A DNA stretch of 64,000 nt, taken from positions 6,249-70,248 of the forward strand of contig JAVJSW010000060.1 in the NCBI GenBank assembly GCA_040219255.1, in the 5' to 3' direction. This document shows, in pieces, positions 13,422 to 48,425 of the stretch. The notes beneath the pieces are model-generated. The model was not told where the DNA came from. It was given only the letters and a program-made list of their open reading frames with translations, and did no database searches. Positions within the stretch are counted from its first letter, which is position 1. Each line of letters opens with the position of its first letter. The stretch is from Sumerlaeia bacterium (lineage in GTDB: Bacteria > Sumerlaeota > Sumerlaeia > SLMS01 > JAHLLQ01). The translations under genes were made by a program, and so were the position numbers.

Positions 13422-13473
13422 CCCCGCCGGCCCCCGCCACTCCGAACCGAGTGGTGGGGGCCGGTTCTTTTTA
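13422..13473 (+). terminator. Rho-independent terminator after the metalloprotease gene
   Basis: Hairpin ccccgccggcccccgccactc...gagtggtgggggccgg followed by ttctttttatt. Confidence 0.6.
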
Positions 13474-14760: not shown

Positions 14761-14915
14761 CTTCCGTCCAGACAATCGAAGTCCCTCGAGTTACAGCAAA
14801 ACCCATTCTTGGCGAAGGCGAGGCTTGACGGGACGGGCCGCCTGACGCTTGCTGCTACGCGCTTCGCGGGCGTGAATCCTTACCCAAAAAAACACCGCCG
14901 CCCGCCAGATCGATC

Positions 14916-17444
14916 ATGGATTTCTCCACGCGCGACGCCCTCGGGCTCGACGCCGTTCTCGAACAACTCGCCGATCACGCCGCCTCCACCCTCGGGAGCG
15001 ACTGGGTGCTCGCGCGCGAACCCGCTTCGGATTCGGACGCCGCGCGGGAGCAACTCGCCCTGACGGCCGAGGTCCTCGATCTTATCGATCGGGGCCAGAA
15101 ACCGCCGCTGGGCGGCCTGAGCGACGTCGGCGAGAGCCTGGCCATCGCGGCCCAGGCGCACTCCTCCCTGCCGCCGGAGCGCTGGATGCCTCTCGCCCGG
15201 CACTTGCAGGCGGTCGAGGCGCTCTCGCAATTCGGCGCCAACCGGGCCGAATCGGCGCCGCTGTTTTCCAAGATTTGCGAGCGCCTGAGTACCGAACCAG
15301 ATCTCTCGAGCGCCATCGAACGCACCTTCGATCACGACGGCCGCATCCGCGATAACGCCTCGCCGGGGCTCAGCCGGGCACGCTCGGACCTGCGCCGCGC
15401 GGAAAGCCGCGTCTTCTCGGAAATCAACGGCGCCCTCGGCCGCCTGCGCGGCGACAGCATTCTACAGGACGATTACTCGACGGTGCGCAACGGCCGCCAC
15501 GTGGTTCCTGTGAAGGCCAATTTTCGTGGCCGCGTCAACGGCATCGTCCACGGCTCCTCGTCCAGCGGCGAAACGCTTTTCATCGAGCCGGCCAACGTGG
15601 TCGAGGCCGCCAACGACGTGGAAATCGCCCGCGAGCGCGAAGCCGAGGAAGTCCGCAAAATCCTGGAAGCGCTCACCGCCCAACTCCGGCCCTTCGCCCC
15701 CGTGGCCAAAGCCGATTTGCCGGCGCTGGCTCTCATCGATGGCACGACAGCCCTGGCCCGCGCGGCGGCCGAGCACGGTTGGCGCATCCCGACCCTGACC
15801 GCCGACGGCAGACCGCTGGCGCTGCTCTCGGCCCATCACCCTCTGCTCCACCTGAGCCAGCGAGATAAGAGCGTCCCCATCACGGTGGAACTCTCGCCCG
15901 ACGACTATTGCGTCATCCTGAGCGGCCCCAACGCCGGCGGCAAGACGACGGCCATGCGGACCCTGGCGTTGAGCGCGGCGCTGGCCCAGTGTGGTTCGGC
16001 GATCCCCGCGGCGATGGAATCGGAACTGCCGGTCTTCCGCGGTTTCTACGCCGACATCGGCGATCAGCAAGACCTCGGCGAAGGCGTCTCCACCTTCAGC
16101 GGCCACATCCGCCGCATGCGCGAAATCCTGGAGGAAGCGGACGATCAATCGCTGGTACTGCTCGATGAACTCGGCACCGGTACGGACCCGACGGAAGGCG
16201 GCGCGCTGGCGCAGGCGATCCTGGAAGAATTGATGGCCCGCGCCCGCCTGACCATCGCCACGAGCCATCTGCAGCCCATCAAGCAGTGGGCCGCCGACAC
16301 GCCTGGCGCCCGCAACGCCAGCTTCACCCTGGACCCGCAGACGCACCGGCCCACGTTCCGCCTGCGGCTCGACCTGCCGGGGGCCAGCGAGGCGTTCTTC
16401 ATCGCCGAGAACGAAGGCTTGGACGCGGTGCTGCTCAAGCGGGCGCGGTCCCTGGTCGGCGAGCAGCAGGTCCGCATGAGCGAGTTGATCGCCCAGGTTC
16501 AGCAAATGGAGCAGGACTTGGCCCGCGAGCGCCGCGACGCGGCCGAACGCGCCGAACGGCTCCGCACGCAGCTCGAAATGGCCGAACAGCGCGCCAACGA
16601 TCTGATCGAAGAGCGCAAGCGCGTGCGGCGCATGGCGCTGCAAGAGCGCGACTCCGCCGCCCGCGAAGTGCGCGAGCAGTTCGAGCGCTTGATCGCCGAG
16701 CTGCCCAGCGAGGAAGCCCTCGAGCAGCGCAAGAAGCTGCTCTCGGAAGGCCGCCGCACCATCGCCGGCGAGCAGGAGCGCGTCCGCGGCGAGCTGCGCG
16801 CCATCGAGCAAGGCGAAGGCGACCCGGTGGAGGAGCTGGCGGAGGGCCAGAAAGTCTTCGTGCGGGCCTTTGGGCGCTGGGGCGTTGTCGTCGATGTGGC
16901 GCACGACGGCAGCAAGGCCCGGGTCGACGTCGGCGGCATCAGCGCCTTCGTCCCCGCCGAGGGATTGCTCGACGCCGAGCCGAAGAAAGTCCTGCCCTTC
17001 GAGCCGGACCCGGAACCGCAGGCCGCCGCCGCCCTGAGCAAAACAAAGAAGAAGCCGAAAAAGAGCAAGAAGCTCAAAGCCGCCCTGGAAAACGCGGAAA
17101 CGCTGCCCGATCCCGAGCCGGTGCGCCGCCCCGTTTCCACCCTCTCGCAGCGCTTTCCCACGAAAGCCACCCAGCGAAAGAAAACCGGTTTCCGCCGCGA
17201 ACCGGTTCCCATGTACCTGGATCTGCACGGCTTCCGCGCCATCGAAGCCATCGAAGCGATCGACCGCTACCTCGACCGCGCGCTGCTTTGCGACTACCCC
17301 TACGTCCGCATCATCCACGGCGTCGGCGAAGGCCTCCTCTACAAGACCGTCCGCGAATTCCTCAACGGCTACCCCTCGGTCAAGAGCTGGCGCCCGGGAA
17401 CGCCGGAAGAAGGCGGGGGCGGGGTGACGGTGGTGGAGTTTTAG
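14916..17444 (+). CDS. mutS2: Endonuclease MutS2 (MutS domain III/V ATPase plus C-terminal Smr domain)
   Basis: Walker A 'GPNAGGKTTAMRTLAL', 'LLDELGTGTDPTEG', and C-terminal Smr 'LDLHGFRAIEAIEAIDRYLD'; ATG at 14916. Confidence 0.85.
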   Translation: MDFSTRDALGLDAVLEQLADHAASTLGSDWVLAREPASDSDAAREQLALTAEVLDLIDRGQKPPLGGLSDVGESLAIAAQAHSSLPPERWMPLARHLQAVEALSQFGANRAESAPLFSKICERLSTEPDLSSAIERTFDHDGRIRDNASPGLSRARSDLRRAESRVFSEINGALGRLRGDSILQDDYSTVRNGRHVVPVKANFRGRVNGIVHGSSSSGETLFIEPANVVEAANDVEIAREREAEEVRKILEALTAQLRPFAPVAKADLPALALIDGTTALARAAAEHGWRIPTLTADGRPLALLSAHHPLLHLSQRDKSVPITVELSPDDYCVILSGPNAGGKTTAMRTLALSAALAQCGSAIPAAMESELPVFRGFYADIGDQQDLGEGVSTFSGHIRRMREILEEADDQSLVLLDELGTGTDPTEGGALAQAILEELMARARLTIATSHLQPIKQWAADTPGARNASFTLDPQTHRPTFRLRLDLPGASEAFFIAENEGLDAVLLKRARSLVGEQQVRMSELIAQVQQMEQDLARERRDAAERAERLRTQLEMAEQRANDLIEERKRVRRMALQERDSAAREVREQFERLIAELPSEEALEQRKKLLSEGRRTIAGEQERVRGELRAIEQGEGDPVEELAEGQKVFVRAFGRWGVVVDVAHDGSKARVDVGGISAFVPAEGLLDAEPKKVLPFEPDPEPQAAAALSKTKKKPKKSKKLKAALENAETLPDPEPVRRPVSTLSQRFPTKATQRKKTGFRREPVPMYLDLHGFRAIEAIEAIDRYLDRALLCDYPYVRIIHGVGEGLLYKTVREFLNGYPSVKSWRPGTPEEGGGGVTVVEF

Positions 17445-17590
17445 GCAGATGGTTGAGTGTGGCTTTTTGGTCACAAAATCTAGCGATTTTTGGCGTCATA
17501 ATGCGTTGTTTTCCATTGTCTCGCAAATCGATGTTAAATTTACTCCGTCCAGCGTTTTCAATGCCCTAACCTTTTCACCCGGAGTTCATC

Positions 17591-18079
17591 ATGAAGTTCC
17601 AGAACATTCTCTTGGCCATGGGTTTCCTGGCAGCTACTTCCATCCCTAATATGACCACCGCTGAGTGCGATACCTGCGGCGGCAAGTGCGAAAAGTCTGT
17701 GTCGGCCAGAGATTACAAGGCTTGCACCAATTGGCTGGGAGGTGGTGGTCAGGTCTACATGACCCGTCACGCGAGCTATCGGTGCGACCGAAACAAGCAG
17801 ATTGAGGGCGGATGCAGCGGCACCACCCCAAGTGGTCCAGCCTATACGATTTTTGGCTACGCCCACAATATCAACGAAAACGAATGCGTCGTGCGCTTCG
17901 AACTGAACGGCACGGTCTCGACGATCATTTCCGATTCAGCCTCGCCCTCATTGCCCGAAGGTTCCGTGGTTCTTTCGGTGACCTGCTATGACCGTGATCA
18001 ATGCATCGTGATCAGTTATGAAGAGCCAACTGAAAGCGGCACTGCGAACGAATGCGCCTACCCGTCCTGCAGCGCCTAG
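17591..18079 (+). CDS. Small secreted cysteine-rich protein (12 Cys), unknown function; low-GC gene
   Basis: Signal peptide 'MKFQNILLAMGFLAATS'; GGAG RBS at 17581; about 54% GC versus about 66% in flanking DNA. Confidence 0.55.
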   Translation: MKFQNILLAMGFLAATSIPNMTTAECDTCGGKCEKSVSARDYKACTNWLGGGGQVYMTRHASYRCDRNKQIEGGCSGTTPSGPAYTIFGYAHNINENECVVRFELNGTVSTIISDSASPSLPEGSVVLSVTCYDRDQCIVISYEEPTESGTANECAYPSCSA

Positions 18080-18174
18080 CCGCCTGCAAGCTTCGGCAAA
18101 TAAACAATGCTTCCATCTCAAACCCCTTGGCTCTCCTATGCCAAGGGGATCTTATCATCTTTAAGGACCGCTTC

Positions 18175-19533
18175 ATGTCATTCAGATACTGGGTCGTCTT
18201 ATTCATCTTTTTATGTCCCCTGATCGCATTTTGTCAAGAGCCTGACATTCGTGATTTTCCCCCTTTGGAAGCCGCAATCGCATGGCCAATCATCGAGCAG
18301 GGGACGTTCGAAGGCGTCGTGGAATCTTCCGGACCTCCTCCGATGACGTCACGCGAGGTGGAAGCAAGTCTAATGGATGTCGAAACCGACTTTCTTGCGA
18401 CTTTAGCGGAGAGTGGTGAGGAGCTGTCGGCGGATTACCGGGAGATACTGGACGAATTCCTTGAGGAGCAAAGAGGTATATTGGAAAAGCTGCTTCTGCC
18501 TACGAATTCAAAAAAGAATTTTACGGTGTCGCTTTCCGGTCACCAGATGCGGCTTGAGTCGAGGATTTACGAGGATGATAGTTCCGTTTCCGAAGAGACG
18601 ATGACGGTGATTGGTCCAGAGGGGAAAAAGATCCTCACATCGAATATCCGATATTCCCGCCCAAGTGCCTACATATTTTTGGACGATGCCAAGAACGCTC
18701 CGGAAGACGCTATTTACGGCAACATCCTGGGTACGATCGGGACGGAGTTAGCCAAGGCGTCCACCCTGAATTTGTCGAGCAAGGATCTGGAAGGCGACAA
18801 GGTCTATTGGTTCGAGGCCACGGACATCAAGACAGACTTTTTCGACATTTACAGGGATGGCGCGGTTTCCTTCACGCGTATTGGCGTACGCTCTCAACAC
18901 GGCAACCGCCTCTCCGTCTATTTCAGCCAAGTTGGCGAAACCTTTCGACTCATCAATCGATATGACGACTTCCGAGAGGTTCCTGGATGGGGGTGGTATC
19001 CGCATGAAATCACGCTCATAACTCAGAATGGCGTCTTTGACAAGGAGGTTCTCCAGCGTATCCGCTCCGGGGCTCTGGCCCCCAACACCGACGAAGCGAT
19101 CGCCGCCTTCGCCCCTCAAGTAGAGAATGTGAAGACGATTACTTTGAGCAAAGTGGACATCGAAACACCGGTGGAAAAAGACGTTTTCGATTTCGAAATT
19201 CCAGTCGGCACCGTAGTCAAAGTCTACACCGGAGATGAGTCCAGCACCTACGTTCAGGGGGACTTTTCCGCGAGAGATGTTGTTACCGGCAGAAAGGTTG
19301 ACATGGCGGCGGGTCTGGAATTGGCCGAGGGAACTTCCCAGACTAAGGAGGAGATTGCCGAAACGCCTACACGTGAAATTGTTTCCGATACGCCCGCCAA
19401 GGTGGAACAGAAGGTAGAACCGCATGTCGTCGAACCAGCGAAGTCCAAGCGAAATGGAATGATCTTCGGCCTTCTTGCCGTTTCCTTCGTTATTGGCTTG
19501 GGACTTGTATTCAAGGTCTTTCGTAAGAAGTAA
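18175..19533 (+). CDS. Secreted protein with a C-terminal TM anchor, unknown function (possible LolA/RseB-like fold); low-GC gene
   Basis: ATG at 18175 with N-terminal signal peptide 'MSFRYWVVLFIFLCPLIAFC'; C-terminal 'GMIFGLLAVSFVIGLGLVFKVFRKK'; about 48% GC. Confidence 0.55.
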   Translation: MSFRYWVVLFIFLCPLIAFCQEPDIRDFPPLEAAIAWPIIEQGTFEGVVESSGPPPMTSREVEASLMDVETDFLATLAESGEELSADYREILDEFLEEQRGILEKLLLPTNSKKNFTVSLSGHQMRLESRIYEDDSSVSEETMTVIGPEGKKILTSNIRYSRPSAYIFLDDAKNAPEDAIYGNILGTIGTELAKASTLNLSSKDLEGDKVYWFEATDIKTDFFDIYRDGAVSFTRIGVRSQHGNRLSVYFSQVGETFRLINRYDDFREVPGWGWYPHEITLITQNGVFDKEVLQRIRSGALAPNTDEAIAAFAPQVENVKTITLSKVDIETPVEKDVFDFEIPVGTVVKVYTGDESSTYVQGDFSARDVVTGRKVDMAAGLELAEGTSQTKEEIAETPTREIVSDTPAKVEQKVEPHVVEPAKSKRNGMIFGLLAVSFVIGLGLVFKVFRKK

Positions 19534-19679
19534 TTTCCCTATCTCCACAGCGAATCTCAGTCTCCACAACGATCCAAATCTGCGCGGCCTTTCCCACGGC
19601 CCCCACCTCCCACTGCCTTTTGCAACGCATCGAAAACGTTGACACCGAAATGTGGTGCAATTAGGAATGCGTTTGGATT

Positions 19680-31007: not shown

Positions 31008-31079
31008 GTTGGCGCGGCCCGAGGGCTTCGCAATCTTCTTGATTCGAACCAGCTTTGGGGCTCATAGTCGTCCAACCGA

Positions 31080-31164
31080 GCGAGCGTGGCGGAATTGGCA
31101 GACGCACCAGGTTTGCGTCCTGGCGGGGAAACCCGTGGGAGTTCGAGTCTCCCCGCTCGCACCA
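31080..31164 (+). tRNA. Class II tRNA (Leu-type body, 13-nt variable arm, A73, encoded CCA) whose anticodon loop reads UUUGCGU, giving anticodon UGC (Ala) as read
   Basis: Manual fold: acceptor GCGAGCG/CGCTCGC; D-arm GGCGGAATTGGCAGACGC (near-identical to bacterial tRNA-Leu); anticodon stem CCAGG/CCTGG; T-arm GGGAG-TTCGAGT-CTCCC. Confidence 0.7.
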
Positions 31165-37423: not shown

Positions 37424-37737
37424 GGATGAACCACAGAGATGACACAGAGGAGCGAGGTTGCACAGAGGTCGGGTGCAGTCAGGATCGGAGCATTCCAGAA
37501 AACGGACACACAGCTCAAAGAATCGCGAAGGCTGAGGGTGGATAGAATCAGTGGTTCGCGGGTAAGGAACGGGATTTGACTTGTTATCCAAAAACCAAAG
37601 AAAACTCCTGGTTTGTTCCTTGTAATCTGCGTGAGCTTTCTGATTTCCGAGTTTTTTCTCTGAAAAAGCAGCCCGTAGGCTCCGAAGGTTTTCTGATTTT
37701 CTGCGAAAACTCTATCCTCTGCGTCCTCTGTGGTTAT
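37424..37737. repeat. Intergenic element of about 310 bp with imperfect terminal inverted repeats (CACAGAGG-repeat arm), copy 3, upstream of prs
   Basis: Left arm 37424-37475 (ccacagagatgacacagaggagcgaggttgcacagagg) and inverted right arm 37700-37737; AT-rich interior; related copies at 60884-61197 and 63594-63903. Confidence 0.45.
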
Positions 37738-38693
37738 GCCGGGCGCCGGCCCAGGAAGTCGAACTGGTGTGCGATATAGACCAGTTCGCCGCGGTCGAGC
37801 TGGGCGTGGCGCTCGGCCATCCAGCGCGCGAGCCGGTCGGGCGGAAAGACGTCCGAGCGCTTTGCCAGTTCGCTTTCGAGATAATGCAGGATGCAGCGGA
37901 TGAAGTAGGCTTCCTCCGCCGGATAGGCGCCACCGGCGCCGGCATAGACAATCCAGTCGCTGCTCTCCGCCGCCAGGATTTCCGCCCCGGCGCGGCGGGC
38001 CTGGGCGAAGAAATGGCGCCCGGCGCGGCTGTCGCCTGACAGACGTCCCGCGATCCGGCGCTGGTCCATGGATTCGTGATAGAGGCGGATCGCGAGGGTG
38101 TCGTCCTCGGGGTCGCTGGTGGCGGGCTCGAGGGCCGTCTCGCCATCGAAGGTGATGGGGAAGTAGAAAAACCAGCCGGGCTCGAGCAGCTCGAGCCACC
38201 GGGGCAGCACCGCGTCCACATCGAAGAGGTCGAGCACGGCTTGCCCCATCAGGCCATGCACTCGGGGCGCGTTCGCGGGCCGGGCGGCGATCCAGTCGAG
38301 GATATCGACCTGGTGGAACTCGACTTCGACGCGCTTCATCTCGTGGCGATTTTCGAAGAGAACGAGCGTTTCGTCAAAGGGGCAGACACTCCAGCCCTCG
38401 CCGCGAGCCCAGGCCATGAGGCCTTCGCGCCCGGCGGCCAGGGCTTCGCCATCGATTTCCACCACCGTATAGTGGGCGTTGATTCCGGGCAGGGCCATCA
38501 CGCGGCGCAGCAGCGCCCCCGTGCCGCCGCCGATTTCGAGCAGGCGCCGCAAGCGGCCTCCGCCCTGGGGCCCGAAGATTTCGCCAACGAACCGGCCCCA
38601 GACGGCACGGCTGAGCGCGCGGTTGTCCACCGTCCGTTTGGATTCGAGGTAGCGGGGAAAAGAGAATTCGAAGGACGCGGCGGCGGCGGACAT
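37734..38693 (-). CDS. Class I SAM-dependent methyltransferase
   Basis: 'LLEIGGGTGALL' motif I; ATG at 38693. Confidence 0.65.
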   Translation of the reverse strand: MSAAAASFEFSFPRYLESKRTVDNRALSRAVWGRFVGEIFGPQGGGRLRRLLEIGGGTGALLRRVMALPGINAHYTVVEIDGEALAAGREGLMAWARGEGWSVCPFDETLVLFENRHEMKRVEVEFHQVDILDWIAARPANAPRVHGLMGQAVLDLFDVDAVLPRWLELLEPGWFFYFPITFDGETALEPATSDPEDDTLAIRLYHESMDQRRIAGRLSGDSRAGRHFFAQARRAGAEILAAESSDWIVYAGAGGAYPAEEAYFIRCILHYLESELAKRSDVFPPDRLARWMAERHAQLDRGELVYIAHQFDFLGRRPA

Positions 38694-38761: not shown

Positions 38762-39499
38762 CTAGACGACCGGTTTGGGGTGAACCAGCAGGAGGTTGGC
38801 GTCGTAAGTGACGATTCCCAGCAGAATCGCCGCGATAGCGTGTTCCGTGGCGACCCAGTAGAAGTGGTCGTTTTCGGCGTAGGGGTTGGTATGGAGGGGA
38901 TCGGCGACCAGGACGCGGCGGCGTTCGCTGTCCATGCCGCAGAGGACGACGAAATGGCCGGCGACTTCGCCGGCGACGTCGTCGAGAATCGCGACGCGGC
39001 CCTCGAAACGCTCGCGCGCCGAACGATACAGGAACGTCGCGTTCAGGCCCGTGAGCAGCGGCATGCCATCCTCGACGATGTGCTCGGCGAGGAGTTCGTG
39101 GGAGAGGTCGCGCATGCGCAAGCGGCCGCCCATGGTGAGAAACTTCAGGTAGCCGGCGGTGGCATCGAGAAGTCTCTCGTTATTGGACTTGGAATCGCGC
39201 TGCTGACGTAGTTTTTCGCCGATGTCGACCTGGGGGCGATGGTTTTCGCCGAACCAGGTGGGGTCGAAAACGTGGACGTTGTGGGTATAGATGGTCGCGT
39301 CGTAGCCGCGTTCGAGCGCATGGCAGCCGAGAAAGACCGCCAGGGTGCCGCCCTCGGGGAATTGAGGGGCCTGCGCGATCACGTCCTTCAAACTGATTTC
39401 GTCGCCGTGATAGGCGTAAATGGCCTGGAGGCACGTCGGACCACAGGTCACGTCGTCTGGTTGGCGGTGGATTTTGAGGGGACGGGGAATAACGAGCAT
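38762..39499 (-). CDS. Papain-like cysteine peptidase domain protein (C39/BtrH-like)
   Basis: 'DDVTCGPTCLQAIYAYHG' resembles the C39 Cys active-site motif; ATG at 39499. Confidence 0.45.
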   Translation of the reverse strand: MLVIPRPLKIHRQPDDVTCGPTCLQAIYAYHGDEISLKDVIAQAPQFPEGGTLAVFLGCHALERGYDATIYTHNVHVFDPTWFGENHRPQVDIGEKLRQQRDSKSNNERLLDATAGYLKFLTMGGRLRMRDLSHELLAEHIVEDGMPLLTGLNATFLYRSARERFEGRVAILDDVAGEVAGHFVVLCGMDSERRRVLVADPLHTNPYAENDHFYWVATEHAIAAILLGIVTYDANLLLVHPKPVV

Positions 39500-39794
39500 C
39501 TCGGCGGTTTCTCCTTAGAAACCAACCAGAGAGGATGGCGCAGCCAGGCGCCGAAAATCAAGCACTTGTATGAGGGCTTGATAAAACCTTGGAGCGCAGA
39601 GGGGAAAAGTGGCCGGGAGGACAAAGTTGCCACGGATCGGCACGGATGGGGATTCAGATAAACAGAACTAAATGAATATTCTCCCGCATCCGTGCCCCGT
39701 TCAGGATCGAGAGACCCAGGCGGCTCCAAGCCGCGCCGGAGCGATCCCCCTCAGTGAAGCCTCTCTCCTCTGTACCCTTCTGTGGTTATTGAGT

Positions 39795-40217
39795 TTACCC
39801 CACCAGCTCCGCGTCCGAGAACCAGAGCGCCAGTTCGCGCGCGGCGCTTTCCGGGCTGTCGCTGCCGTGGACGATGTTTTCGGTGACTTCGGTGCAGTAG
39901 TCGCCGCGGATGGTGCCGGGCAGGGCGTCGGCGGGCTTGGTGGCGCCCATCATCTTGCGGGCCAGCGAAATCGCGTCCGGGCCCTTGACCGCCAGGGCCA
40001 CCAGCGGGCTGCCGGTCATGAAGGCCTTCAGGTCGGCGAAGAACGGCTTGCCGACGTGCTCGGCGTAGTGCTTGTCGGCCAGTTCGCTGCTCATTTTCAT
40101 CATCTTCAGGCCAGCGATGGTGAGGCCTTTGGCCTCGAAGCGGCCGATGACTTCGCCAATCAGGCCGCGCTTCACGCCGTCGGGCTTCACAAGAATCAGG
40201 GTGGTTTCAACTGCCAT
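39795..40217 (-). CDS. ndk: Nucleoside diphosphate kinase
   Basis: 'TLILVKPDGV' and 'NIVHGSDS' active-site His region; ATG at 40217. Confidence 0.9.
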   Translation of the reverse strand: MAVETTLILVKPDGVKRGLIGEVIGRFEAKGLTIAGLKMMKMSSELADKHYAEHVGKPFFADLKAFMTGSPLVALAVKGPDAISLARKMMGATKPADALPGTIRGDYCTEVTENIVHGSDSPESAARELALWFSDAELVG

Positions 40218-40383
40218 GGGTCGGGGTCTCCCGGGTATTCGGTAAGGTGCTCAAATGCGGTGGGAGCTTGCCCGGGGCCGGGGGGCGCGGGTCAACCTTG
40301 TCTTTGGGGGCTGCGGGGGATGAGAGGCGCCTCGACAGGAGAAGGATGCGCGTGGACGAGCGCTTAGCACAAAACCATTTTAT

Positions 40384-41139
40384 CTAGTTGTAAATAAACA
40401 GTCCTGCTTGACATCTCGGATTTTGTGGGAAATCCTTCAGCCATGCTCCCCTTGCGGTAGAACCGCAGGGCTGACGTCCGCCTCTTCGGAGGCGGCGTCT
40501 TTTTTTTAGCGCCACTTTGCCGGCTTTGAAATCGAGACACCAGGAACCAGGAGCGACCTGGATAATATCGGGCATCTGCGACGCCTTCAGTGTGGATTTC
40601 CAGATATCTCTCTTAGAGTCAGCAACCTGCTCGAGGTCGAAAGATTTCCTCTTCGGTGGAAAAGCGACTCGAATCTCTTGTTCGATTTTTCGGCGCTTGA
40701 TGAAACGAATTGGAGGAACCAAATCGCTATCGGCGGAGATCAAGAGTGTCACATCGCACTCTTCGTCGTATGCATCGGTCAGCATTTGCACTGCGATGTT
40801 AACATCCGTCATTTTCTCTTCCGCCCGAACAAAGGGGTAAGAACAGCGAAAGCACTTGCTCTTCTTGTGAAGAAAGTTGCCGTAAACCACAGTACAATCC
40901 CGCAAGGTCTCCACAGCCTCCAAGTAGGCGTTTTGCCTTCGCTCCTTTTGCGGATCAGCGGCAGAGGCGGAAACTCGCGATGTAAAATAATATGTGTGTG
41001 ACAGAGCTTCGTCGGATTTGACGAAGGCGGACGCCAACTTCACAAAATCCAACCAATAATACCTGCGAAATGAAGCACTCTTCATTCCGTAGTACAGGTT
41101 GAATCCATCGATGTATGCAATAACCCTTTTCTGTTCCAT
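40384..41139 (-). CDS. NYN-domain (LabA/DUF88-like) predicted ribonuclease; low-GC gene overlapping the nrdJ stop (TGATG)
   Basis: 'VIAYIDGFNLYY' NYN N-terminus and 'LISADSDL' acidic motif; about 50% GC; ATG at 41137-41139 shares its A with the nrdJ TGA. Confidence 0.6.
   Translation of the reverse strand: MEQKRVIAYIDGFNLYYGMKSASFRRYYWLDFVKLASAFVKSDEALSHTYYFTSRVSASAADPQKERRQNAYLEAVETLRDCTVVYGNFLHKKSKCFRCSYPFVRAEEKMTDVNIAVQMLTDAYDEECDVTLLISADSDLVPPIRFIKRRKIEQEIRVAFPPKRKSFDLEQVADSKRDIWKSTLKASQMPDIIQVAPGSWCLDFKAGKVALKKRRRLRRGGRQPCGSTARGAWLKDFPQNPRCQAGLFIYN
40473..40508 (+). terminator. Orphan plus-strand intrinsic terminator, antisense to the 3' part of the NYN ORF
   Basis: Hairpin gacgtccgcctcttcggaggcggcgtc followed by T9; a TTGACA hexamer lies at 40408-40413. 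Confidence 0.55.
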
Positions 41140-44100
41140 CAACTACACCCCGTCGTCCCCCCGCACGTTTCGCATTTCAGGCAGGTGCCGTTGCGCACGA
41201 GGGTGAAGCTGAAGCAGGACGGGCAGGGGTCGCCTTCGTAGCCTTTCAGGCGGGCGATGCGGATTTGTTCGTCGCGGGTCATGGAGGGCTCCTGGGTGGC
41301 GGCCGTCGAGGCGGACGGCGCGGCGGCGGCCTTGGGGCCTTGGGGCTGGCGGGCGGAGTCGCCGTGGTTCACGGAGGCAGGACTCGGCGAGCCGGGGCGG
41401 AAGTGCTCGCTGACTGGCGGGCGGGCTTCCGAAGGCCGCGGCGTGTCGATGGAGACGACCCGTTCGCTGACGAATTCTTCGCCGTCGAAGTCCGGCGCGG
41501 CCTGGGCCGCCGAGCCCATGGCGTCGTGGCGCAGGTCCTCGGGGCTGACGTGGGCCAGATCGTAGCGGCCCAGGTAGCTGATCGCCAGCTCGCGGAAAAT
41601 GTAGTCGATGATCGACGTCGAGCGTTTGATGTGCGGGTTGCCGCGGACGACGCCGCTGGGCTCGAAGCGCGTGAAGACGAAGCTCTCGACAAACTTCTCC
41701 AGCGGCACGCCGTGCTGCAAACCCATGCTGACGGAAATGGCGAAGCAGTTCATCAGGCTGCGGAAGGCGGCGCCTTCTTTGTGCATATCCACGAAGATTT
41801 CGCCCAGGCTGCCGTCCTCGTATTCGCCGGTGCGCAGGAAGACCTTGTGGCTGCCGATGACGGCGCGCTGGGTATAGCCGCTGCGGCGTTCGGGCAGCCG
41901 GCGCCGGCGGCTGATGTAGCGGTAAATCAGGCGCTCGGCGATCTGCTGGGGCGAGGCGTCGGCGGTGATGGGCGCGAGCGATTCCTCGGCCACTTCCTCC
42001 GCCTCTTCCTCGTCGAGGAAGGCGAGGTCGCTGGCGGAAATGTTGAGCGGCTGGCTGAGCTTCGAGCCGTCGCGATAGAGCGCGACGGCTTTGGTCATCA
42101 GCTTCCACGCCGACATGTAGGCGTTCTTGATGTCGTCCACGCCGACTTCGTTGGGCATGTTGATGGTCTTGCTGATGGCGCCGCTGATAAAGGGCTGGGC
42201 CGCGGCCATCATCTTGATATGGCTGGGATAGGACAGGAAGCGCTTGCCGTACTTGCCGCATTTGTTCGCGCAATCGAACACCGGCAGGTGCTCGTCGCGC
42301 AGCTCGGGTGAGCCTTCGACGGTCATGCGGCCGCAGATGTGATCGTTGGCGGCGGCGATTTCTTCCTTCGTAAAGCCAATGCCCTCAAGGACGCTGAAGC
42401 TCCAGTCGTTGAGCTGCTCGTCGCTCAGGTGCAGGTACTTGCGGCAGTTCTCCTCGCCCAGCGTCCACTTGTTGAACACGAAGGCGATGTCGAACGCCCC
42501 GTGCAATTGGGCCTCGACGGCGTCGAGCATGGCGGGCGTGAAGCCTTTTTCCTCCAGCGTGGCGCGATTGACGAAGGGCGCGCCCTCCAGCGTCAGCGAC
42601 CCCCGCGCGAAAGCGATGATGCGGTCGATCTGGCGGTCGGTATAACCCAGGTGGCGCAGCGCCGCGGGCACGCTCTGGTTGATGATTTTGAAGTACCCGC
42701 CACCGGCCAGCTTCTTGAACTTCACCAGGGCGAAGTCGGGTTCGATGCCGGTGGTGTCGCAATCCATGACGAGGCCGATGGTGTTGTGAGAAATGAACCC
42801 GTTGGCGATGTAGGTGACGTTCTCCGGCACGGAAATGTCGTAGGTCAGTTGCTCGCCGCCGTCTTCGTTTGTGGCGACGGCGTCGTAGAAGAATTGCAGC
42901 GCATGGCCGAGGCGCGGGTCGCCGCTCTCGCGGTAGAGGGTTTCCGCCGCGCGGCGCGTGATGGCGCCGCCGTGGCGCTTGCGCGCGAGGGCGATGGCGT
43001 TCTTCAGCCCGGCGCCGGCGGCCACCGGCGCCAGCTCTTCCAGGACCTCGGGGGCGACGAAAACGTAGTCTTTGCGCGCGGCTTGTTCGTTGTCGGCGGA
43101 GCGCACGGCGGCGGACTTGCGTTGGCCCATGAATCCGATCCAGCGCTGGAACGCCGCGTTGTAGGACAGGTTGCGCAGGCGGCTGACGAACAGATCGCTC
43201 TGGCCCCAGCCGCTCGTGTCCACCTTGGTGGTCGTCGGCAGGCCGAGCGTCAGCAACAGCGTCTTCACCTCTTCGCAGAACTCGCGGTGCGACGTGCTCC
43301 AGCACGGAACGTCCTGGGTCACGGTGCCATCGGCCTCATAGAGCCCGCGCAGGAACGCGCCGTAAACCAACGGATCGTTCGCGCCCAGCACGGCATCGGG
43401 GATGCGGGGCAGGTAGCCTTTGCCGGAATGGCCGGCGCTGGGGGCGGCCTTGGTGAACCCGCAGGCTTCCCACCAGAGCGTCAGCGGCACGCTGTGCAGC
43501 GAAACGCCGGTGTAGCCCTTTTCCTGGGTCACGATGGCGTCCAGGTTGAAGAGGCTCTTGGCGAGGGCGCAGAGGCGCTCGGCGACGTCCCTGTCCCCGG
43601 GCGCGACGCACAGGCGCAGGCCCTTGGCGTGGAGCGACCCATCGCCCATGAAGTACCCGACGAATTCCGCCAGATCGGCCGACATGTGGCGCGGCACGCG
43701 CGTCGTGTAATCGCCGGTCCAGTATTCCTCGCCCAGCGGCGGCAGGTTCACCGCCACCGGATCGCCCGCCAGCGCCCCCATCATCAGAGGCACCACATCG
43801 CCCGGCTGCACGTCGGCGAACCGGCGCCAGACGTGCTCGCCGGTGGCGGCGTCCACGACTTTGATGCGGTGCTTCAGGGTGCCCTGAATCGCGTAACCGG
43901 CGTCGGTGCGCAGGCGCCGCGTGTCCTCGACGCCGTTGACGAAGAACTTCGTGGCGTCGCGCTCGCCTTCGTCGGTCATGACGCTGAAGTCCGCGTCCTG
44001 CCAGCGGTCGCCGTTCACATCGCCGAGACGATTCAGCCGCATCAGGCCGCGATTGGTCGAAACCATCGATCCCGCCACCAGGCATCCTGTCGGCGCGATC

Positions 44101-47100
44101 ACCGTGGTCTGCGCGTTCCGGTATCCGTGCCGCTCGCCCATGTCCAGGGCCTGGTCCCAGGCTTCGCGGGCGGCTTCCAGGAGGGGGGCGGGGCAGTGCT
44201 CCGCCGCGATGCCCATGGGCGTCACGGTCAGGTCCTCGTAATCCGAGGTGTGGGCGTCGTAGGCGGCGCGGCGGTGGTTGCGCATGACGCGAAGCATGGG
44301 CTCGCGGTTGGGGGCGAAGCTGGGGAAGGGGCCCTTCTCGGCGGCGATTTCGGCGCTCGTGGCGTAGGACGTGCCGGTCATCAGCGACGTGATCGCGCCG
44401 CAGACGGCGAGGCCCTGGGGGCTGTCGTAGGGAATGCCGCTGACCATCAGCAGCGTCCCCAGATTCGCGTAGCCCAGGCCCAGCGTGCGGAACTCATAGG
44501 ACAGGCGGGCGATGTGCTCGCTCGGGAATTGGGCCATCATCACGCTGATTTCCAGCGTCAACGTCCACAGCCGGCAGCCGTGGCGGAAGTCCTCGATGGC
44601 GAAGGCGCCGGTTTCCGGATCGCGGAATTTCATCAGGTTGAGCGACGCGAGGTTGCAGGCGGTGTCGTCGAGGAACATGTACTCCGAGCAATTGTGAACC
44701 ACGATGCCGTTGGCGACGAAGTGGCTGGAGACGGGCTCGGTGAGGTCGAAAACGTCCTCGGTGCCGCAGGGGGTGAGGGAGGCGACGCGGTCGTAAGGCT
44801 TGTCTTCGTAGGCTCTCACGGTGGCATTCAGCTCTTTCAGGCGCGCGTTCTTTTCACTGCCTTCCAGGAAGCCGATTTGCTCCTGGAAAACGACACGCGA
44901 GGACCGCGAAATCCGCATCGAATGCATTTGCGCGACCGCGTATTCCTTCAGCCCGCCCTTACCATCGGGCAGAAGTGCGGTCTCCTGACCGAGGGCGCGG
45001 CGGTTCTCGTAGATCTTGGCCTTGATGCCAAAACCGAGCAGAATCATTTGGACTTGGCGCAGCAACTCCAGGCTCGTGCTGTCGAGCGCCACGTACTGGC
45101 TTTTGTCGCCATAATTCGCGACAGTGCCATCGGCCGTGAAGAGGCCCCGCAGAATGGCGGCCTGGCTGATGCTGTCGAGGGCGTAAACCTGATCGGTGAA
45201 AGCCTTGGCGGCGGAGCCTTGATCGAGGTGGGCGTACTTGCGCAATTCCTTCAGCACCGCGCTCACCGACGTTCCGACGCGCAGGCCAGTCTCCGTCTTG
45301 GTGATGAGGGCCTGTCGCACTCCGCGCTGATCGCCGGTGCTCAAGGTTTCCTTTGCCTCGCTCAGCGCGGCGTTCAGGTGGGCCGCGACCCGCTCTTCCG
45401 CCTCGCCGACGGTCAGGAACAGGAACTCCTGGCCTTTCGCGCCGGTGGTGATGCAGCCATCGCCGACCGCGGCACCGAGCACCTCGCCTAGGCAAACCGG
45501 CAGCGCCTCCCTTCCAAACCCGCTCCCCTCCAGAATCACCCGGTCATCCGCCGTCAGCTCGCACGCCGGCACATCGCCGCGGTTCGCTGTCAGGACCTTG
45601 TGGTCGGCGGTCAGGCGGAGGCGATAGCCGCTCGCCGTCTTCAATTCGTAGATCGGCTTGTGGCCCGTGGGGAAAATCTTGTCCACCCAGACCGCGTCGC
45701 CGTTGCCGTTGATGATTTCCGCGCGCTCGCCCACCATGTCGGCGATGCGGCGCAGACCGCTCGTGGTGGCGACGAGGGTGTCGCCGGTGACGCACGGGTT
45801 ACTCGCATTGATCCGCCCGCTCGCCGGGCAGGTGTGCCATTCGTTGATGGTGGTGTCGTACTGCACGCCGGGATCGGCGCAGGACCACGCGGCGTAGGCG
45901 ACTTTGTCCCACAGCTCCCCAGCCGGGACGGTGCGCGCCGTTTTGCCGTTCGTGCGGTTGATCAGCGCCCAGTCCGTCTCCGCTTCCACCGCTTCCAGGA
46001 AGGCGTTCGAGAGGCGGACGCTGTTGTTGCTGTTCTGGCCCGACACCGTGAAGTACGCTTCCGAGTCCCACCCCGTGTCGTACTCCTGGAATTCGAGCTT
46101 GGTGTAGCCCTCGCGGGCCAATTGGATGACGCGCTGGATGTAATTGTCCGGCACTCCAGCGTCGCGGGCGTCGCGCACGGCGCGGCGCAGAACCTTGTTC
46201 TCGCGGGGGTTGTAATTGTCGCCGAAGAGATCCGCGTCGGCGTCGTTGCACGCCGTCATGACGGCGTTCAGGTGGCGGTTGCACAGGCGCGAGCCGCTGA
46301 CCAGGGCGGCGACCTTTTGCTCCTCGCGGACCTTCCAGTCGATGAAGGCTTCGACATCCGGATGGTCGATATCCAGGACCACCATCTTGGCGGCGCGGCG
46401 GGTCGTGCCGCCACTCTTGATGGCCCCGGCGGCGCGGTCGCCGATTTTCAGGAAACTCATCAGCCCACTGGACTTGCCGCCGCCCGAGAGCGGTTCGCCC
46501 TCGCCGCGGATGCGCGAGAAATTCGACCCCGTGCCCGACCCGTACTTGAACACCCGCGCCTCACGCGTCCACAGGTCCATGATGCCGCCGTCGTTGACGA
46601 GGTCGTCATCCACCGATTGGATGAAGCAGTTGTGGACGAGGATGCCGTTGGCAAGGAAATAGTGGTCAGCCGTGGTCAGATCATAGACCTCGTGCTCACC
46701 ATCCAACTCCAATATACCTCTAACCTGTCGAACAGTGAAGTCTTCAGAAATGTCCTCATAGCCGGAGATTTCTTGACCAAAGTATAGATTTCTGGTATTT
46801 CGCAAATACTTTGCAGCGCACAAATAGTGGCCCACTTGCAGCGACTTTGCTTGGCAATCGTGGCGTACGTTATTTTCATAGGTCTGAACCACGTGGTCGT
46901 GAGTGACTCTTACCTTGCCAAAGTTTTCTGTTGCTATAACTTCATGAGAAAATGTTATTTCAACAAGCCGCTTCTTTGTAGGTTGCTTGACTACGTATCT
47001 AATATCTTGGAGCACCCGCTGATCACGAGAAGCTATTTTGTATTTGCCAATTGGCAGTTTGATGCCTCCTTTTTCATCTACATGAGTTGAATGCTCTTGA

Positions 47101-47807
47101 ACGCAATAAGCATAAAACTGATCTATGCGAATTCCACTGTGCTCGGCGGTCGAATCATCTTCGGCTCTCAGTTGCTCCCAACGTGAAGAGTTAGTGGGCT
47201 GAACATATATCTGTACATACGTATCCCCCGCCACACACGCGTGCGGCTGCGGGTGCTCGTAGGCGTTCGCCGACTTCTCCAACTCGCCCGTGAAGGGATT
47301 GACGAAGCTGTGGCCTTGGGCCGGGCCGGTGATGCCGTAGGCCCAGTGGAGCCCCGTGTTGAACCATTGGGGCGAGTTCGGCGCCGCCTTCTGAGCCGCC
47401 AGCATGTGGCACATTTCGTCGTAGTAGGCGCGGGCGTCGGCTTCGGAGGCGAAGTAGCCGCCGCGCCAACCCCAATAGGTCCAGCAGCCCGCGAGGCGAT
47501 GGAAGACGGCGCGGGCGTCGCGCTCGCCGCCCATGGCGGTGCCGGGGGCGGGCACGCGGCGTTGCAGCCATTCGGGCACGCCGTCCTCGGCCACGGGCAC
47601 CGATTCGGCGGGGATGCCGGCTTTGCGGAAATACTTCTGGGCCAGGATGTCGACGGCGATCTGGCTCCAATGATCGGGCACGGCGATGTCCTTGGCCTCG
47701 AACACCACCGAGCCGTCGGGGTTCACGATGCGGCTGGTGCGGGTGGAGAAGGGAATGGCGGCGTAGGGGTCGTTACCGGCGTGGGTGAAGCGGCGGGTGA
47801 TGTTCAT
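41139..47807 (-). CDS. nrdJ: Adenosylcobalamin-dependent ribonucleoside-triphosphate/diphosphate reductase (class II, NrdJ) interrupted by three in-frame inteins; C-terminal Cys-rich tail
   Basis: Extein motifs '[10 protein letters not shown]', 'GGGKSSG', '[11 protein letters not shown]', '[22 protein letters not shown]' and 'CPSCF...CLKCETCGG'; ATG at 47807; 2222 aa, of which about 1217 aa is extein. Confidence 0.9.
42783..44084 (-). mobile_element. Intein 3 (434 aa) with LAGLIDADG homing-endonuclease domain, inserted at APTG|TIGL of NrdJ
   Basis: Starts 'CLVAGSMV', ends 'NGFISHN' followed by the +1 Thr; '[10 protein letters not shown]' and '[11 protein letters not shown]'. Confidence 0.8.
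44691..45794 (-). mobile_element. Intein 2 (368 aa) with LAGLIDADG homing-endonuclease domain, inserted at NPC|SEY of NrdJ
   Basis: Starts 'CVTGDTLVA', ends 'NGIVVHN' followed by the +1 Cys; LAGLIDADG-like '[10 protein letters not shown]' and '[11 protein letters not shown]'. Confidence 0.8.
46629..47237 (-). mobile_element. Intein 1 (203 aa mini-intein) inserted before the Cys of the ACFI motif of NrdJ; AT-rich
   Basis: Starts 'CVAGDTYV', ends 'GILVHN' followed by the +1 Cys; DNA is visibly AT-rich relative to its flanks. Confidence 0.8.
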
Positions 47808-48425
47808 GGTCGGGGTCCTTGCGGCGGAGTGGGAGTGGATCGGAGCGGCGTGCGGGGACGGCCATGCCTTCGCTTTTCGTTCGTCGAGGCCAATGGGCCT
47901 CCGGCGGCTGGTTTGGCGGCGGAAGTTCCCATTTGGTTTTTGGAAAAGAGGGGAGGGATACCCCGGACTTTTCCACAGCTTCCAGCAAAATCGGCACAAC
48001 GCGGGGATCAGACGCGTTCCCCTAGATGTTGTACCGTGGTTGTGTAGAAGCGCTAGATATGGCGACTGCTGCAAACAAAAAAACGCCTCGCCAGCAACCC
48101 GAGTGAACTCAGAGGGATGGCGTTTTTTCGGATTTCCGATAGAAATGGTGTGGAAAACTGGAAGCCTTGAAATCCTTCGCTTTGCCGCCCAAGCCAGCGG
48201 ACCGCCCGGCTTCTGTCAAGGAGCAATAAATTTCCGATTTTTGGAACGTGAGGGACCGCGACGGGGGGCCGGCCGCCGTGGCCACGACCGGCGGCGCCAT
48301 TTCTTCAAGAGCCAACCTTCCTCCCACGCCCCCGCAAGTCCGCTCAAACCGGAAACCCGGAGCCGCCGAACTCAACGGCCCCGGTCTTTCAAGAGACGCC
48401 GCGGGTCACGGGCGGGACGCCCGTG

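What the first reader, a model, noticed from the sequence alone, without database searches (positions are those of the whole stretch)
40384..41139. AT-rich NYN-nuclease gene translationally coupled to nrdJ (TGATG overlap), with an internal reverse-strand terminator
The NYN (LabA/DUF88-like) ORF starts with an ATG that overlaps the nrdJ stop codon, so it is co-transcribed with an essential gene. Its GC is visibly lower than the host's, suggesting acquisition. Its 3' region contains a strong hairpin plus T9 on the opposite strand. NYN domains are predicted RNases that recur in mobile and defence contexts.
Basis: partly seen in the sequence, partly recalled or inferred. Interest (0 to 1): 0.55.

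Follow-up and report, generated by a model that had tools for sequence, protein, structure and literature searches.

The report
Frameshifted foreign NYN nuclease gene behind nrdJ
A small predicted-RNase gene of a type usually found in bacterial anti-phage defence islands was recently acquired directly behind the ribonucleotide reductase gene. A 7-base duplication has since shifted its reading frame, so the ORF runs on through a terminator that used to lie just after its stop codon; this is an ordinary case of gene capture and early decay.

Summary
The minus-strand ORF 40384..41139 encodes an NYN protein (Pfam E 2.5e-11), its ATG shares one base with the nrdJ stop (TGATG), and its GC (0.49; GC3 0.55-0.57) is the lowest of any credible gene in the window (neighbours GC3 0.80-0.88).

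The "internal reverse-strand terminator" is explained by a frameshift. A perfect 7-bp tandem duplication (TCCTGGT x2, 40539..40552) shifts the frame after Gly198. Removing one copy gives a 208-aa protein ending ...KPAKWR*. This protein matches the family profile end to end, and its stop (TAA, 40506..40508) abuts the hairpin plus T8 (not T9). The 53-residue tail of the actual ORF has no homologue and is predicted disordered.

The protein belongs to PADLOC candidate family HEC-09 (E 1.4e-70). Five of eight homologue contexts are defence or mobile (type I RM, Hma, Dnd/IS, CRISPR), and the family occurs on 410 plasmid records. None of 80 nrdJ loci from other lineages carries it.

Best reading: a recently acquired defence-island-type NYN RNase gene, now expressed only through nrdJ and starting to decay. 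No close relative of the host is available, so no empty site could be examined. It is a new member of a known kind, of low to moderate interest.

The parts
41137..41141 (-). TGATG junction: the nrdJ stop TGA (41141..41139) overlaps the NYN start ATG (41139..41137) by one base. A GGGG Shine-Dalgarno-like run lies 9-12 nt upstream of the ATG.
   Evidence: Read directly from the sequence. nrdJ ends ...TTGCS*, and 107 of 120 homologues also end in GCS, so nrdJ is neither truncated nor extended.
40546..41139 (-). NYN-domain coding part in the ancestral frame (residues 1-198). All 24 family-invariant residues are present, including D11, N14, E108, D112 and D137.
   Evidence: Pfam NYN E 2.5e-11. PADLOC HEC-09 E 1.4e-70, residues 4-198. 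Alignments A1/A2. AlphaFold pLDDT above 90 over most of residues 1-198. Best PDB match is 2qip, a LabA-like NYN protein, E 7.4e-10.
40539..40552 (-). Perfect 7-bp tandem duplication TCCTGGT|TCCTGGT, a +7 nt frameshift directly after the Gly198 codon.
   Evidence: It is one of only two perfect 7-bp tandem duplications in the 64 kb window. The region is identical in an independent Logan assembly.
40506..40538 (-). Ancestral C-terminal codons VSISKPAKWR plus the TAA stop, now out of frame.
   Evidence: Deleting one repeat copy gives a 208-aa protein that matches the family HMM over positions 2-208 of 208, at 281.6 bits against 270.0 bits for the actual ORF. W207 matches 117 of 119 homologues, and 113 of 119 stop one residue after that W. 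The repaired model has pLDDT 92.2 with an ordered C-terminus.
40384..40545 (-). Out-of-frame read-through tail of the actual ORF (53 residues, Arg/Lys-rich, plus TAG stop).
   Evidence: None of the 119 aligned homologues has a matching extension. pLDDT is below 50 for residues 219-251. GC3 of 0.47 is below GC1 and GC2, which is not coding-like.
40473..40507 (+). Intrinsic-terminator-like element oriented for the + strand: hairpin GACGTCCGCCTC-TTCG-GAGGCGGCGTC followed by T8. On the minus strand it reads A8 plus hairpin with no U-tract, directly after the ancestral TAA.
   Evidence: (unique in the window). No + strand ORF lies upstream of it and there is no Rfam match.
40450..40471 (.). Second stem-loop (CCTTGCGG-TAGAA-CCGCAGGG) immediately 5' of the terminator hairpin on the + strand.
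   Evidence: Fold.
40370..41147 (.). Low-GC block of about 0.78 kb containing the NYN gene and its 3' flank. The right edge lies at or a few nt inside the nrdJ 3' end, and the left edge near 40370.
   Evidence: 100-bp composition profile, GC3 values, and the T-ending last two nrdJ codons.
41139..48074 (-). nrdJ: class II B12-dependent ribonucleotide reductase interrupted by three inteins. It is the upstream gene to which NYN is joined.
   Evidence: Pfam Ribonuc_red_2_N, Ribonuc_red_lgC, TSCPD, Intein_splicing x3 and LAGLIDADG x2.
39795..40217 (-). ndk (nucleoside diphosphate kinase), the next gene downstream on the same strand.
   Evidence: Pfam NDK E 2.1e-55.

Best explanation
The locus holds a recently and horizontally acquired single-gene cassette of the HEC-09 family. 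Members are roughly 206-aa NYN (LabA/COG1432-like, MARF1-like) metal-dependent nucleases, predicted to be RNases. They circulate on plasmids and sit in or beside defence systems.

Here the cassette landed directly behind nrdJ. Its ATG overlaps the canonical nrdJ stop and it has no upstream region of its own. It can therefore only be transcribed with nrdJ, and is most likely translated by termination-reinitiation or from the weak GGGG Shine-Dalgarno sequence.

After acquisition, a 7-bp tandem duplication behind codon 198 shifted the frame. This removed the conserved C-terminal beta-strand and the L-x-R-P-x-x-W motif. The ORF now runs 53 extra codons across its former 3' flank, which contains two hairpins and a T8 run oriented for the opposite strand. 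The 'internal terminator' is thus a flank element uncovered by read-through, probably carried in with the cassette as the terminator of a convergent donor gene.

The catalytic core is intact, so the protein may still cut RNA. The copy looks like an early-stage pseudogene or a C-terminally altered variant.

Shown here: domain, family, overlap, composition, duplication, restored frame, contexts of homologues. Inferred: RNase activity, defence role, co-transcription and coupling, origin of the terminator, loss of function.
For: Family and fold:
- Pfam NYN and PADLOC HEC-09 E 1.4e-70 over 2-193/203 of the profile.
- Best solved-structure match is 2qip, by sequence profile and by Foldseek.

Foreign origin:
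- GC 0.49 and GC3 0.55-0.57, against GC3 0.80-0.88 in the neighbours; lowest of the credible ORFs in the window.
- The compositional block has sharp edges.
- Homologues elsewhere match their own flanks in GC.
- The best homologue in a database of 5.8 billion proteins is only 53% identical.
- 0 of 80 nrdJ loci have an NYN gene. The closest nrdJ relative has a histidine kinase downstream.
- 410 plasmid records and 3 phage or prophage records carry the family.
- 5 of 8 homologue contexts are defence or mobile: type I hsdM-NYN-hsdS, helicase-NYN-DUF1156-DUF499 (Hma) twice, DndB/IS3/HNH, and CRISPR I-C/TIR/transposases.

Frameshift:
- Perfect TCCTGGT x2 at exactly the point where homology stops.
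- The repaired 208-aa protein matches the HMM end to end and scores 11.6 bits higher.
- P204 becomes invariant. W207 is shared by 117 of 119 homologues, and 113 of 119 stop one residue after it.
- The repaired model has pLDDT 92.2 with an ordered C-terminus, while the tail of the actual ORF has pLDDT below 50.
- The duplication is identical in a second assembly.

Junction:
- nrdJ ends at the canonical GCS*.
Against: - No close relative of the host exists in any collection searched (best nrdJ 63%, best neighbouring gene 57% identical). No empty nrdJ-ndk site could be examined, and the timing and extent of the insertion rest on composition alone.
- No target-site duplication, terminal repeat or integrase marks the block, so the insertion mechanism is unknown.
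- The two assemblies may derive from the same reads, so an assembly artefact for the 7-bp duplication is unlikely but not excluded.
- HEC-09 gave no protection against any phage tested in E. coli (bioRxiv 10.1101/2024.01.29.577857), so a defence role is only guilt by association.
- 3 of 8 homologue contexts were not defence-related.
- The + strand terminator has no + strand gene to terminate. Calling it a relic is an inference.
Confidence: 0.75

Rival explanations
1. The 251-aa ORF is the true functional product, and the opposite-strand hairpin plus T-run inside it is a regulatory element. For example, it could end an antisense RNA that controls the nuclease.
For: The ORF is open through to 40384 and is annotated as a 251-aa protein in NCBI. 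The hairpin plus T8 is strong and unique in the window.
Against: The last 53 residues have no counterpart in 119 homologues, of which 113 stop one residue after the conserved W. The tail is predicted disordered and has non-coding-like GC3. A 7-bp perfect duplication sits exactly at the divergence point, and removing it restores the canonical end and stop.
Confidence: 0.07
2. The 7-bp duplication is a sequencing or assembly artefact. The organism carries an intact 208-aa HEC-09 gene whose stop abuts the hairpin.
For: The repaired gene is perfect in every other respect: all invariant residues are present and there is no other lesion. Both assemblies could come from the same read set.
Against: Two different assemblers give the identical sequence here, and their only differences lie about 9 kb away. 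Perfect 7-bp tandem duplications are not a typical short-read error.
Confidence: 0.12
3. The NYN gene is an ancestral housekeeping partner of nrdJ and ndk (for example an RNA-processing enzyme of the nucleotide-metabolism operon), not an acquired gene.
For: It overlaps nrdJ tightly and lies between two genes of dNTP synthesis on the same strand, with no minus-strand terminator predicted in between. Some NYN proteins are linked to tRNA/rRNA processing operons (PMC5499597).
Against: GC3 is 0.25-0.3 below all neighbours. None of 80 nrdJ loci has NYN or ndk nearby. The family matches a defence-candidate profile at E 1.4e-70 and is common on plasmids. Other family members have their own upstream regions of 127-865 nt. 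The gene is frameshifted.
Confidence: 0.04
4. The two-hairpin plus T8 element is the 3' end of a small convergent + strand RNA. This RNA pairs with the NYN mRNA 3' region and acts as an antitoxin-like regulator, as in type I toxin-antitoxin systems.
For: The architecture fits: two stem-loops with the second a canonical terminator, a TTGACA hexamer at 40409, and no protein gene upstream. The element lies inside the low-GC block, so it probably arrived with the gene.
Against: The scan found no promoter consensus and there is no Rfam family match. Homologue loci show no comparable element after their stops, and several are followed within 1-14 nt by the next gene. No covariation test is possible because no related sequences exist.
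Confidence: 0.1

Closest known systems
HEC-09 (Hma-embedded candidate 9; PADLOC-DB v2 profile PDLC04163)
   Same: Full-length profile match (E 1.4e-70, profile positions 2-193 of 203). Single-gene NYN protein of about 206 aa with conserved aspartates. Homologues found here sit inside Hma and type I RM operons, as described for the family (paper).
   Different: This copy is not embedded in or next to any recognisable defence system. It sits between nrdJ and ndk. It has no upstream region of its own because its ATG overlaps the nrdJ stop. It also carries a 3' frameshift that removes the conserved C-terminal motif.
LabA-like NYN proteins (NYN.COG1432 group of the PIN-like superfamily; structure 2qip, VPA0982)
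   Same: Pfam PF01936 above threshold. Best solved-structure match by sequence profile and by fold (TM 0.70-0.71 normalised to the target).
   Different: Only 19-20% identity to 2qip. The HEC-09 clade has an extra beta-hairpin insert with two conserved Cys (C96, C99) and a C-terminal beta-hairpin plus PxxW motif that extend beyond the 162-residue 2qip core.
MARF1 NYN domain (eukaryotic RNase, PDB 6FDL)
   Same: The HEC-09 paper reports structural similarity and three shared active-site aspartates. This is the basis for predicting Mg-dependent RNase activity.
   Different: The similarity was not recovered among the top Foldseek PDB hits here. The protein has no OST-HTH or RRM partner domains.
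PIN-domain toxins of type II toxin-antitoxin systems (VapBC)
   Same: Same superfamily of small metal-dependent RNases. Both are frequent in defence islands and linked to RM systems (PMC5499597).
   Different: There is no adjacent antitoxin gene. The NYN branch is distinct from the VapC branch.

Membership tests
NYN domain (Pfam PF01936, PIN-like superfamily) | Profile match above the curated gathering score | tested here: met
   44.7 bits against a cut-off of 24.2, residues 6-174.
NYN domain (Pfam PF01936, PIN-like superfamily) | Conserved acidic active-site residues | tested here: met
   D11, D112 and D137 are invariant and D139 nearly invariant across 120 sequences, and all are present in the window protein. 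Their equivalence to MARF1 D358/D426/D452 is taken from the paper and was not superposed here.
NYN domain (Pfam PF01936, PIN-like superfamily) | PIN-like alpha/beta fold | tested here: met
   AlphaFold models have pLDDT 84.9 (actual ORF) and 92.2 (repaired). The top PDB hit is 2qip at E 7.4e-10 and 2.1e-9.
NYN domain (Pfam PF01936, PIN-like superfamily) | Nuclease (RNase) activity | not testable with these tools
   Requires biochemistry.
HEC-09 (PADLOC candidate defence family) | Match to the PADLOC HEC-09 profile over nearly its full length | tested here: met
   E 1.4e-70, 235 bits, profile positions 2-193 of 203.
HEC-09 (PADLOC candidate defence family) | Canonical length (~206 aa) and C-terminal L-x-R-P-x-x-W-x-stop | tested here: not met
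   The actual ORF is 251 aa and lacks the motif. The motif is encoded out of frame and is restored by deleting one copy of a 7-bp duplication.
HEC-09 (PADLOC candidate defence family) | Embedded in or adjacent to a defence system (Hma, RM, BREX and similar) | tested here: not met
   The neighbours are nrdJ, ndk, a C39-like peptidase, a methyltransferase-like protein, prs and L25. Homologues elsewhere are embedded in such systems.
HEC-09 (PADLOC candidate defence family) | Anti-phage activity | not testable with these tools
   The source paper saw no protection against the phages it tested.
Translationally coupled gene pair | Stop of the upstream gene overlaps or abuts the start of the downstream gene on the same strand | tested here: met
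   TGATG at 41137..41141. The start is supported by the homologues' N-termini.
Translationally coupled gene pair | Downstream translation depends on upstream translation | not testable with these tools
   Needs reporter fusions or ribosome profiling.
Rho-independent terminator | GC-rich hairpin followed by a U-tract | tested here: met
   On the + strand only: an 11-12 bp stem, a 4-nt loop and T8.
Rho-independent terminator | Located at the 3' end of a co-oriented transcription unit | tested here: not met
   No + strand ORF or Rfam RNA lies upstream. All flanking genes are on the minus strand.
Type II toxin-antitoxin (VapBC-like) | Small adjacent antitoxin gene in the same operon | tested here: not met
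   There is no candidate ORF between nrdJ, NYN and ndk.

The most novel reading that the evidence does not exclude
The cassette may not be a decaying passenger. It could be a domesticated sentinel: an NYN RNase wired by stop/start overlap to the ribonucleotide reductase operon, so that its dose follows nucleotide-synthesis demand. The co-acquired convergent two-hairpin RNA would act as its antisense brake, in the manner of a type I toxin-antitoxin system, and the reversible 7-bp duplication would act as an on/off switch.

A related reading is that the T-ending final two nrdJ codons mean the donor already carried an nrdJ-NYN fusion point. The gene would then travel by recombination at nrdJ, much as inteins and homing genes do.
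Probability: 0.06. Interest if true: 0.65.

Novelty: new member of a known kind. Interest (0 to 1): 0.25.

Why it matters
The main value is corrective. The deposited 251-aa annotation is a frameshift product, and the puzzling 'terminator inside a gene' has a simple explanation.

There are two lesser points. First, this is a clear example of a defence-island-type single-gene nuclease landing in a housekeeping operon and being expressed only through its neighbour. None of the eight homologue contexts examined, and no locus in the metagenome scan, showed coupling to nrdJ. Only one scanned locus, L130, had a sizeable upstream open frame (201 aa) ending in the overlap. Second, the locus shows how quickly such orphan copies start to decay. 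It does not open a new question in nuclease or defence biology.

Tried and rejected
- Rfam scans of 39000-42000 at E<=1 and of the whole window at gathering scores found no RNA family for the hairpin region. Only the tRNA was found.
- The sigma-70 promoter scan found nothing in 39500-41600.
- A search for a small + strand ORF ahead of the terminator found none credible.
- NCBIfam gave no hit.
- The synteny test in close relatives failed. The genome scan with the nrdJ C-extein returned only relatives at 63% identity or less, from many phyla. The protein searches with nrdJ and with the C39-like neighbour also found nothing above 63% and 57%. Two contexts of the C39-like relatives show no shared synteny. 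No empty site was available.
- The search for flanking direct or inverted repeats that would mark a mobile element found only chance-level 9-15 nt matches.
- The hairpin is not a dispersed repeat in the window.
- A metagenome pattern scan looked for NYN genes whose ATG lies in a TGATG. 53 of 120 loci carry family members, but the upstream frame is almost always under 100 aa, so the overlap is a chance stop. None follows nrdJ.
- A programmed frameshift and a bidirectional terminator were considered and set aside. No slippery or stimulatory context was examined in detail, and the minus-strand side has an A-tract before the hairpin and no U-tract after it.

Full report
**What is at the coordinates**

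The minus strand carries an ORF at 40384..41139 (251 aa from the ATG). Its ATG (41139..41137) shares one base with the TGA of the upstream ORF (41141..41139), giving TGATG.

The upstream ORF is a class II, B12-dependent ribonucleotide reductase (nrdJ) interrupted by three inteins (Pfam Ribonuc_red_2_N, Ribonuc_red_lgC, TSCPD, Intein_splicing x3, LAGLIDADG x2). It ends ...TTGCS*. Of 120 nrdJ homologues, 107 end in GCS, so the junction lies at the canonical end of nrdJ.

The next gene downstream on the same strand is ndk (39795..40217). The ORF product has a Pfam NYN domain (PF01936, 44.7 bits against a cut-off of 24.2, residues 6-174). The exact protein is deposited as 'NYN domain-containing protein [Sumerlaeia bacterium]'.

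**Composition**

- The window averages 63.7% GC, while the ORF is 49.1%. That is the 2nd lowest of 1265 sliding windows of the same length, z = -3.4.
- GC3 is 0.55-0.57, against 0.80-0.88 for nrdJ, ndk and the genes further down. It is the lowest of the credible ORFs in the window.
- A 100-bp profile puts the low-GC block at about 40370..41140, with a sharp right edge at the nrdJ stop.
- Homologues in other organisms have the GC of their own flanks: 0.55 vs 0.55-0.57, 0.41 vs 0.45, 0.59 vs 0.58-0.66, and 0.57 vs 0.57-0.59. Low GC is therefore not a family trait.

**The 'internal terminator' and the frameshift**

The + strand has a hairpin at 40473..40499 followed by T8 at 40500..40507. A second stem-loop lies just before it at 40450..40471. 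The 73-nt stretch folds at -35.6 kcal/mol (z -3.9), and the hairpin is unique in the window.

Homologues of the protein are almost all about 206 aa long and cover only about 78% of the query. In alignment they all stop where the query goes on for roughly 45 more residues.

Translating the other frames showed that the -1 frame encodes ...PGVSISKPAKWR*, which is the family's C-terminal pattern. The cause is a perfect 7-bp tandem duplication, TCCTGGT|TCCTGGT, at 40539..40552, directly behind the Gly198 codon. Deleting one copy has these effects:

- It yields a 208-aa protein that matches an HMM built from 13 homologues over positions 2-208 of 208, at 281.6 bits. The actual ORF scores 270.0 bits over positions 2-198.
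- AlphaFold gives the repaired protein pLDDT 92.2 and pTM 0.87, with an ordered C-terminal beta-hairpin.
- In the actual ORF, confidence falls after residue 198 and is below 50 for residues 219-251. The tail has GC3 below GC1 and GC2, which is not coding-like.

Only two perfect 7-bp tandem duplications exist in the whole window. The ancestral stop, TAA at 40506..40508, abuts the A/T-run. The hairpin element is therefore the gene's former 3' flank, entered only because of the frameshift.

An independent Logan assembly of run SRR26147846 has the identical sequence here. Its only seven differences from the window lie at 31036..31129.

**What family it is**

- The protein matches the PADLOC profile HEC-09 at E 1.4e-70 over positions 2-193 of 203.
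- HEC-09 is an 'Hma-embedded candidate', a single NYN-domain protein structurally similar to the MARF1 RNase domain with three shared aspartates. It gave no protection against the phages tested in E. coli (bioRxiv 10.1101/2024.01.29.577857).
- All 24 family-invariant residues, including D11, D112 and D137, are present in the window protein.
- The best solved-structure relative, by sequence profile and by fold, is 2qip. This is the LabA-like NYN.COG1432 representative.

**Contexts of homologues**

I examined eight contexts.

- One lies between hsdM and hsdS of a type I RM system.
- Two lie between an SNF2 helicase and DUF1156/DUF499, which is the Hma arrangement. One of these also sits beside MazEF.
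- One lies beside DndB, an IS3 transposase, an HNH protein and an AAA ATPase.
- One lies among transposases, a TIR/Mrr protein and type I-C cas genes.
- Three are solitary or uninformative.

All eight have their own upstream intergenic region of 127-865 nt. The family also occurs on 410 plasmid records, most of them mobilisable or conjugative, and in three phage or prophage records.

**Is the nrdJ linkage conserved?**

No. None of 80 nrdJ loci from the species-representative genome collection (52-63% identical, many phyla) has an NYN gene or an ndk within 6 kb. The closest relative has an intein-less nrdJ followed by a PAS histidine kinase.

A metagenome scan looked for family members whose ATG lies in a TGATG. 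It returned 53 loci with NYN homologues. The upstream open frame was under 100 aa in all but one, and none followed nrdJ.

The host lineage has no close relative in any collection. The best nrdJ match is 63% identical and the best match to the C39-like neighbour is 57%. An empty site could therefore not be found. This is the main gap in the analysis.

**Mechanism**

Shown here: an NYN/HEC-09 gene with foreign composition sits directly behind nrdJ, has no upstream region of its own, is frameshifted near its 3' end, and has a + strand terminator-like element just past its ancestral stop.

Inferred:

- The gene was acquired recently, given how little its GC3 has drifted towards the host's.
- It is transcribed only with nrdJ. 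It is translated by reinitiation, or from the GGGG run 9-12 nt upstream of the ATG.
- Its product is a metal-dependent RNase of the kind carried in defence islands.
- The 7-bp duplication is a recent lesion that removes a conserved, ordered C-terminal element. It probably weakens or inactivates the protein.
- The hairpins arrived with the cassette, for example as the terminator of a convergent donor gene. Now they at most block antisense transcription or stabilise the minus-strand RNA.

No minus-strand terminator is predicted between NYN and ndk. The host does use canonical terminators at some other gene ends.

**Rivals**

- The 251-aa protein with a functional internal antisense element is contradicted by the frameshift evidence.
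- An assembly artefact is unlikely, given two concordant assemblies, but only read mapping can settle it.
- An ancestral housekeeping role is contradicted by composition, by the absence from other nrdJ loci, and by the family's distribution.
- A convergent small regulatory RNA ending at the T8 run cannot be excluded. It has no support from promoter scans, Rfam or homologue loci.

**Unexplained**

- The last two sense codons of nrdJ are TGT AGT. nrdJ otherwise uses TGC 39:2 over TGT and AGC 57:9 over AGT, and only 5.3% of C-extein codons end in T. The compositional break may therefore lie a few bases inside nrdJ. Possible reasons are that the incoming DNA supplied those codons, that selection favoured an AU-richer reinitiation site, or chance (about 0.003).
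- No target-site duplication or terminal repeats mark the block.

**Verdict**

This is a real feature and it is now largely explained. It is a new, damaged member of a known candidate-defence nuclease family in an unusual place, behind a housekeeping gene. Interest is low to moderate.

Noticed in passing
window 41142-41147 (- strand): The last two sense codons of nrdJ are TGT AGT. nrdJ otherwise uses TGC 39:2 over TGT and AGC 57:9 over AGT, and only 5.3% of its C-extein codons end in T. The compositional break may therefore lie a few bases inside nrdJ rather than at its stop.
   Followed up: partly
window 41139-48074 (- strand), especially 46300-47300: nrdJ is interrupted by three inteins, two of them with LAGLIDADG homing-endonuclease domains. 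One segment, about 46300-47300, is as GC-poor (0.49) as the NYN gene, which suggests a recently arrived intein. The listed ORF also has a long, probably spurious, N-terminal extension before MNITRRF.
   Followed up: no
window 17300-19600 (+ strand ORFs 17591-18079 and 18052-19533): A second low-GC island (GC 0.50-0.54, GC3 0.60-0.66) lies just downstream of a mutS2/Smr gene. Its two ORFs (162 and 493 aa) have no Pfam or PADLOC match, so this is another probable foreign insertion.
   Followed up: partly
window 31036-31164: All seven differences between the window and the independent Logan contig cluster at 31036-31129, around a tRNA-Ala(TGC) that is unusually long (85 nt by ARAGORN; the Rfam match spans 82 nt for 71 model positions). 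This could reflect strain variation or a multi-copy region.
   Followed up: no
window 40473-40507 (+ strand): A strong + strand terminator-like element lies in a stretch where every flanking gene is on the minus strand. No + strand ORF or known RNA precedes it. A TTGACA hexamer sits at 40409 but has no acceptable -10 element.
   Followed up: partly
L083/L084 about 6622-6670: In one homologue locus the NYN stop is followed within about 20 nt by a sequence ending ...GTGGATTGAAAC. From memory this resembles a type I-C CRISPR repeat. Cas3, Cas5d and Csd1 genes lie about 3 kb away.
   Followed up: no
window 37734-38693 (- strand): A 319-aa methyltransferase-like protein gives a partial PADLOC hit to mad2 (MADS system) at E 1.9e-9, over the methyltransferase region only. 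There are no other defence genes nearby, so this is probably just domain similarity.
   Followed up: no
window 13426-13465: A very strong 17-bp-stem terminator sits between convergent genes (10311-13394 on + and 13471-14775 on -). It shows that this organism does use canonical intrinsic terminators.
   Followed up: no
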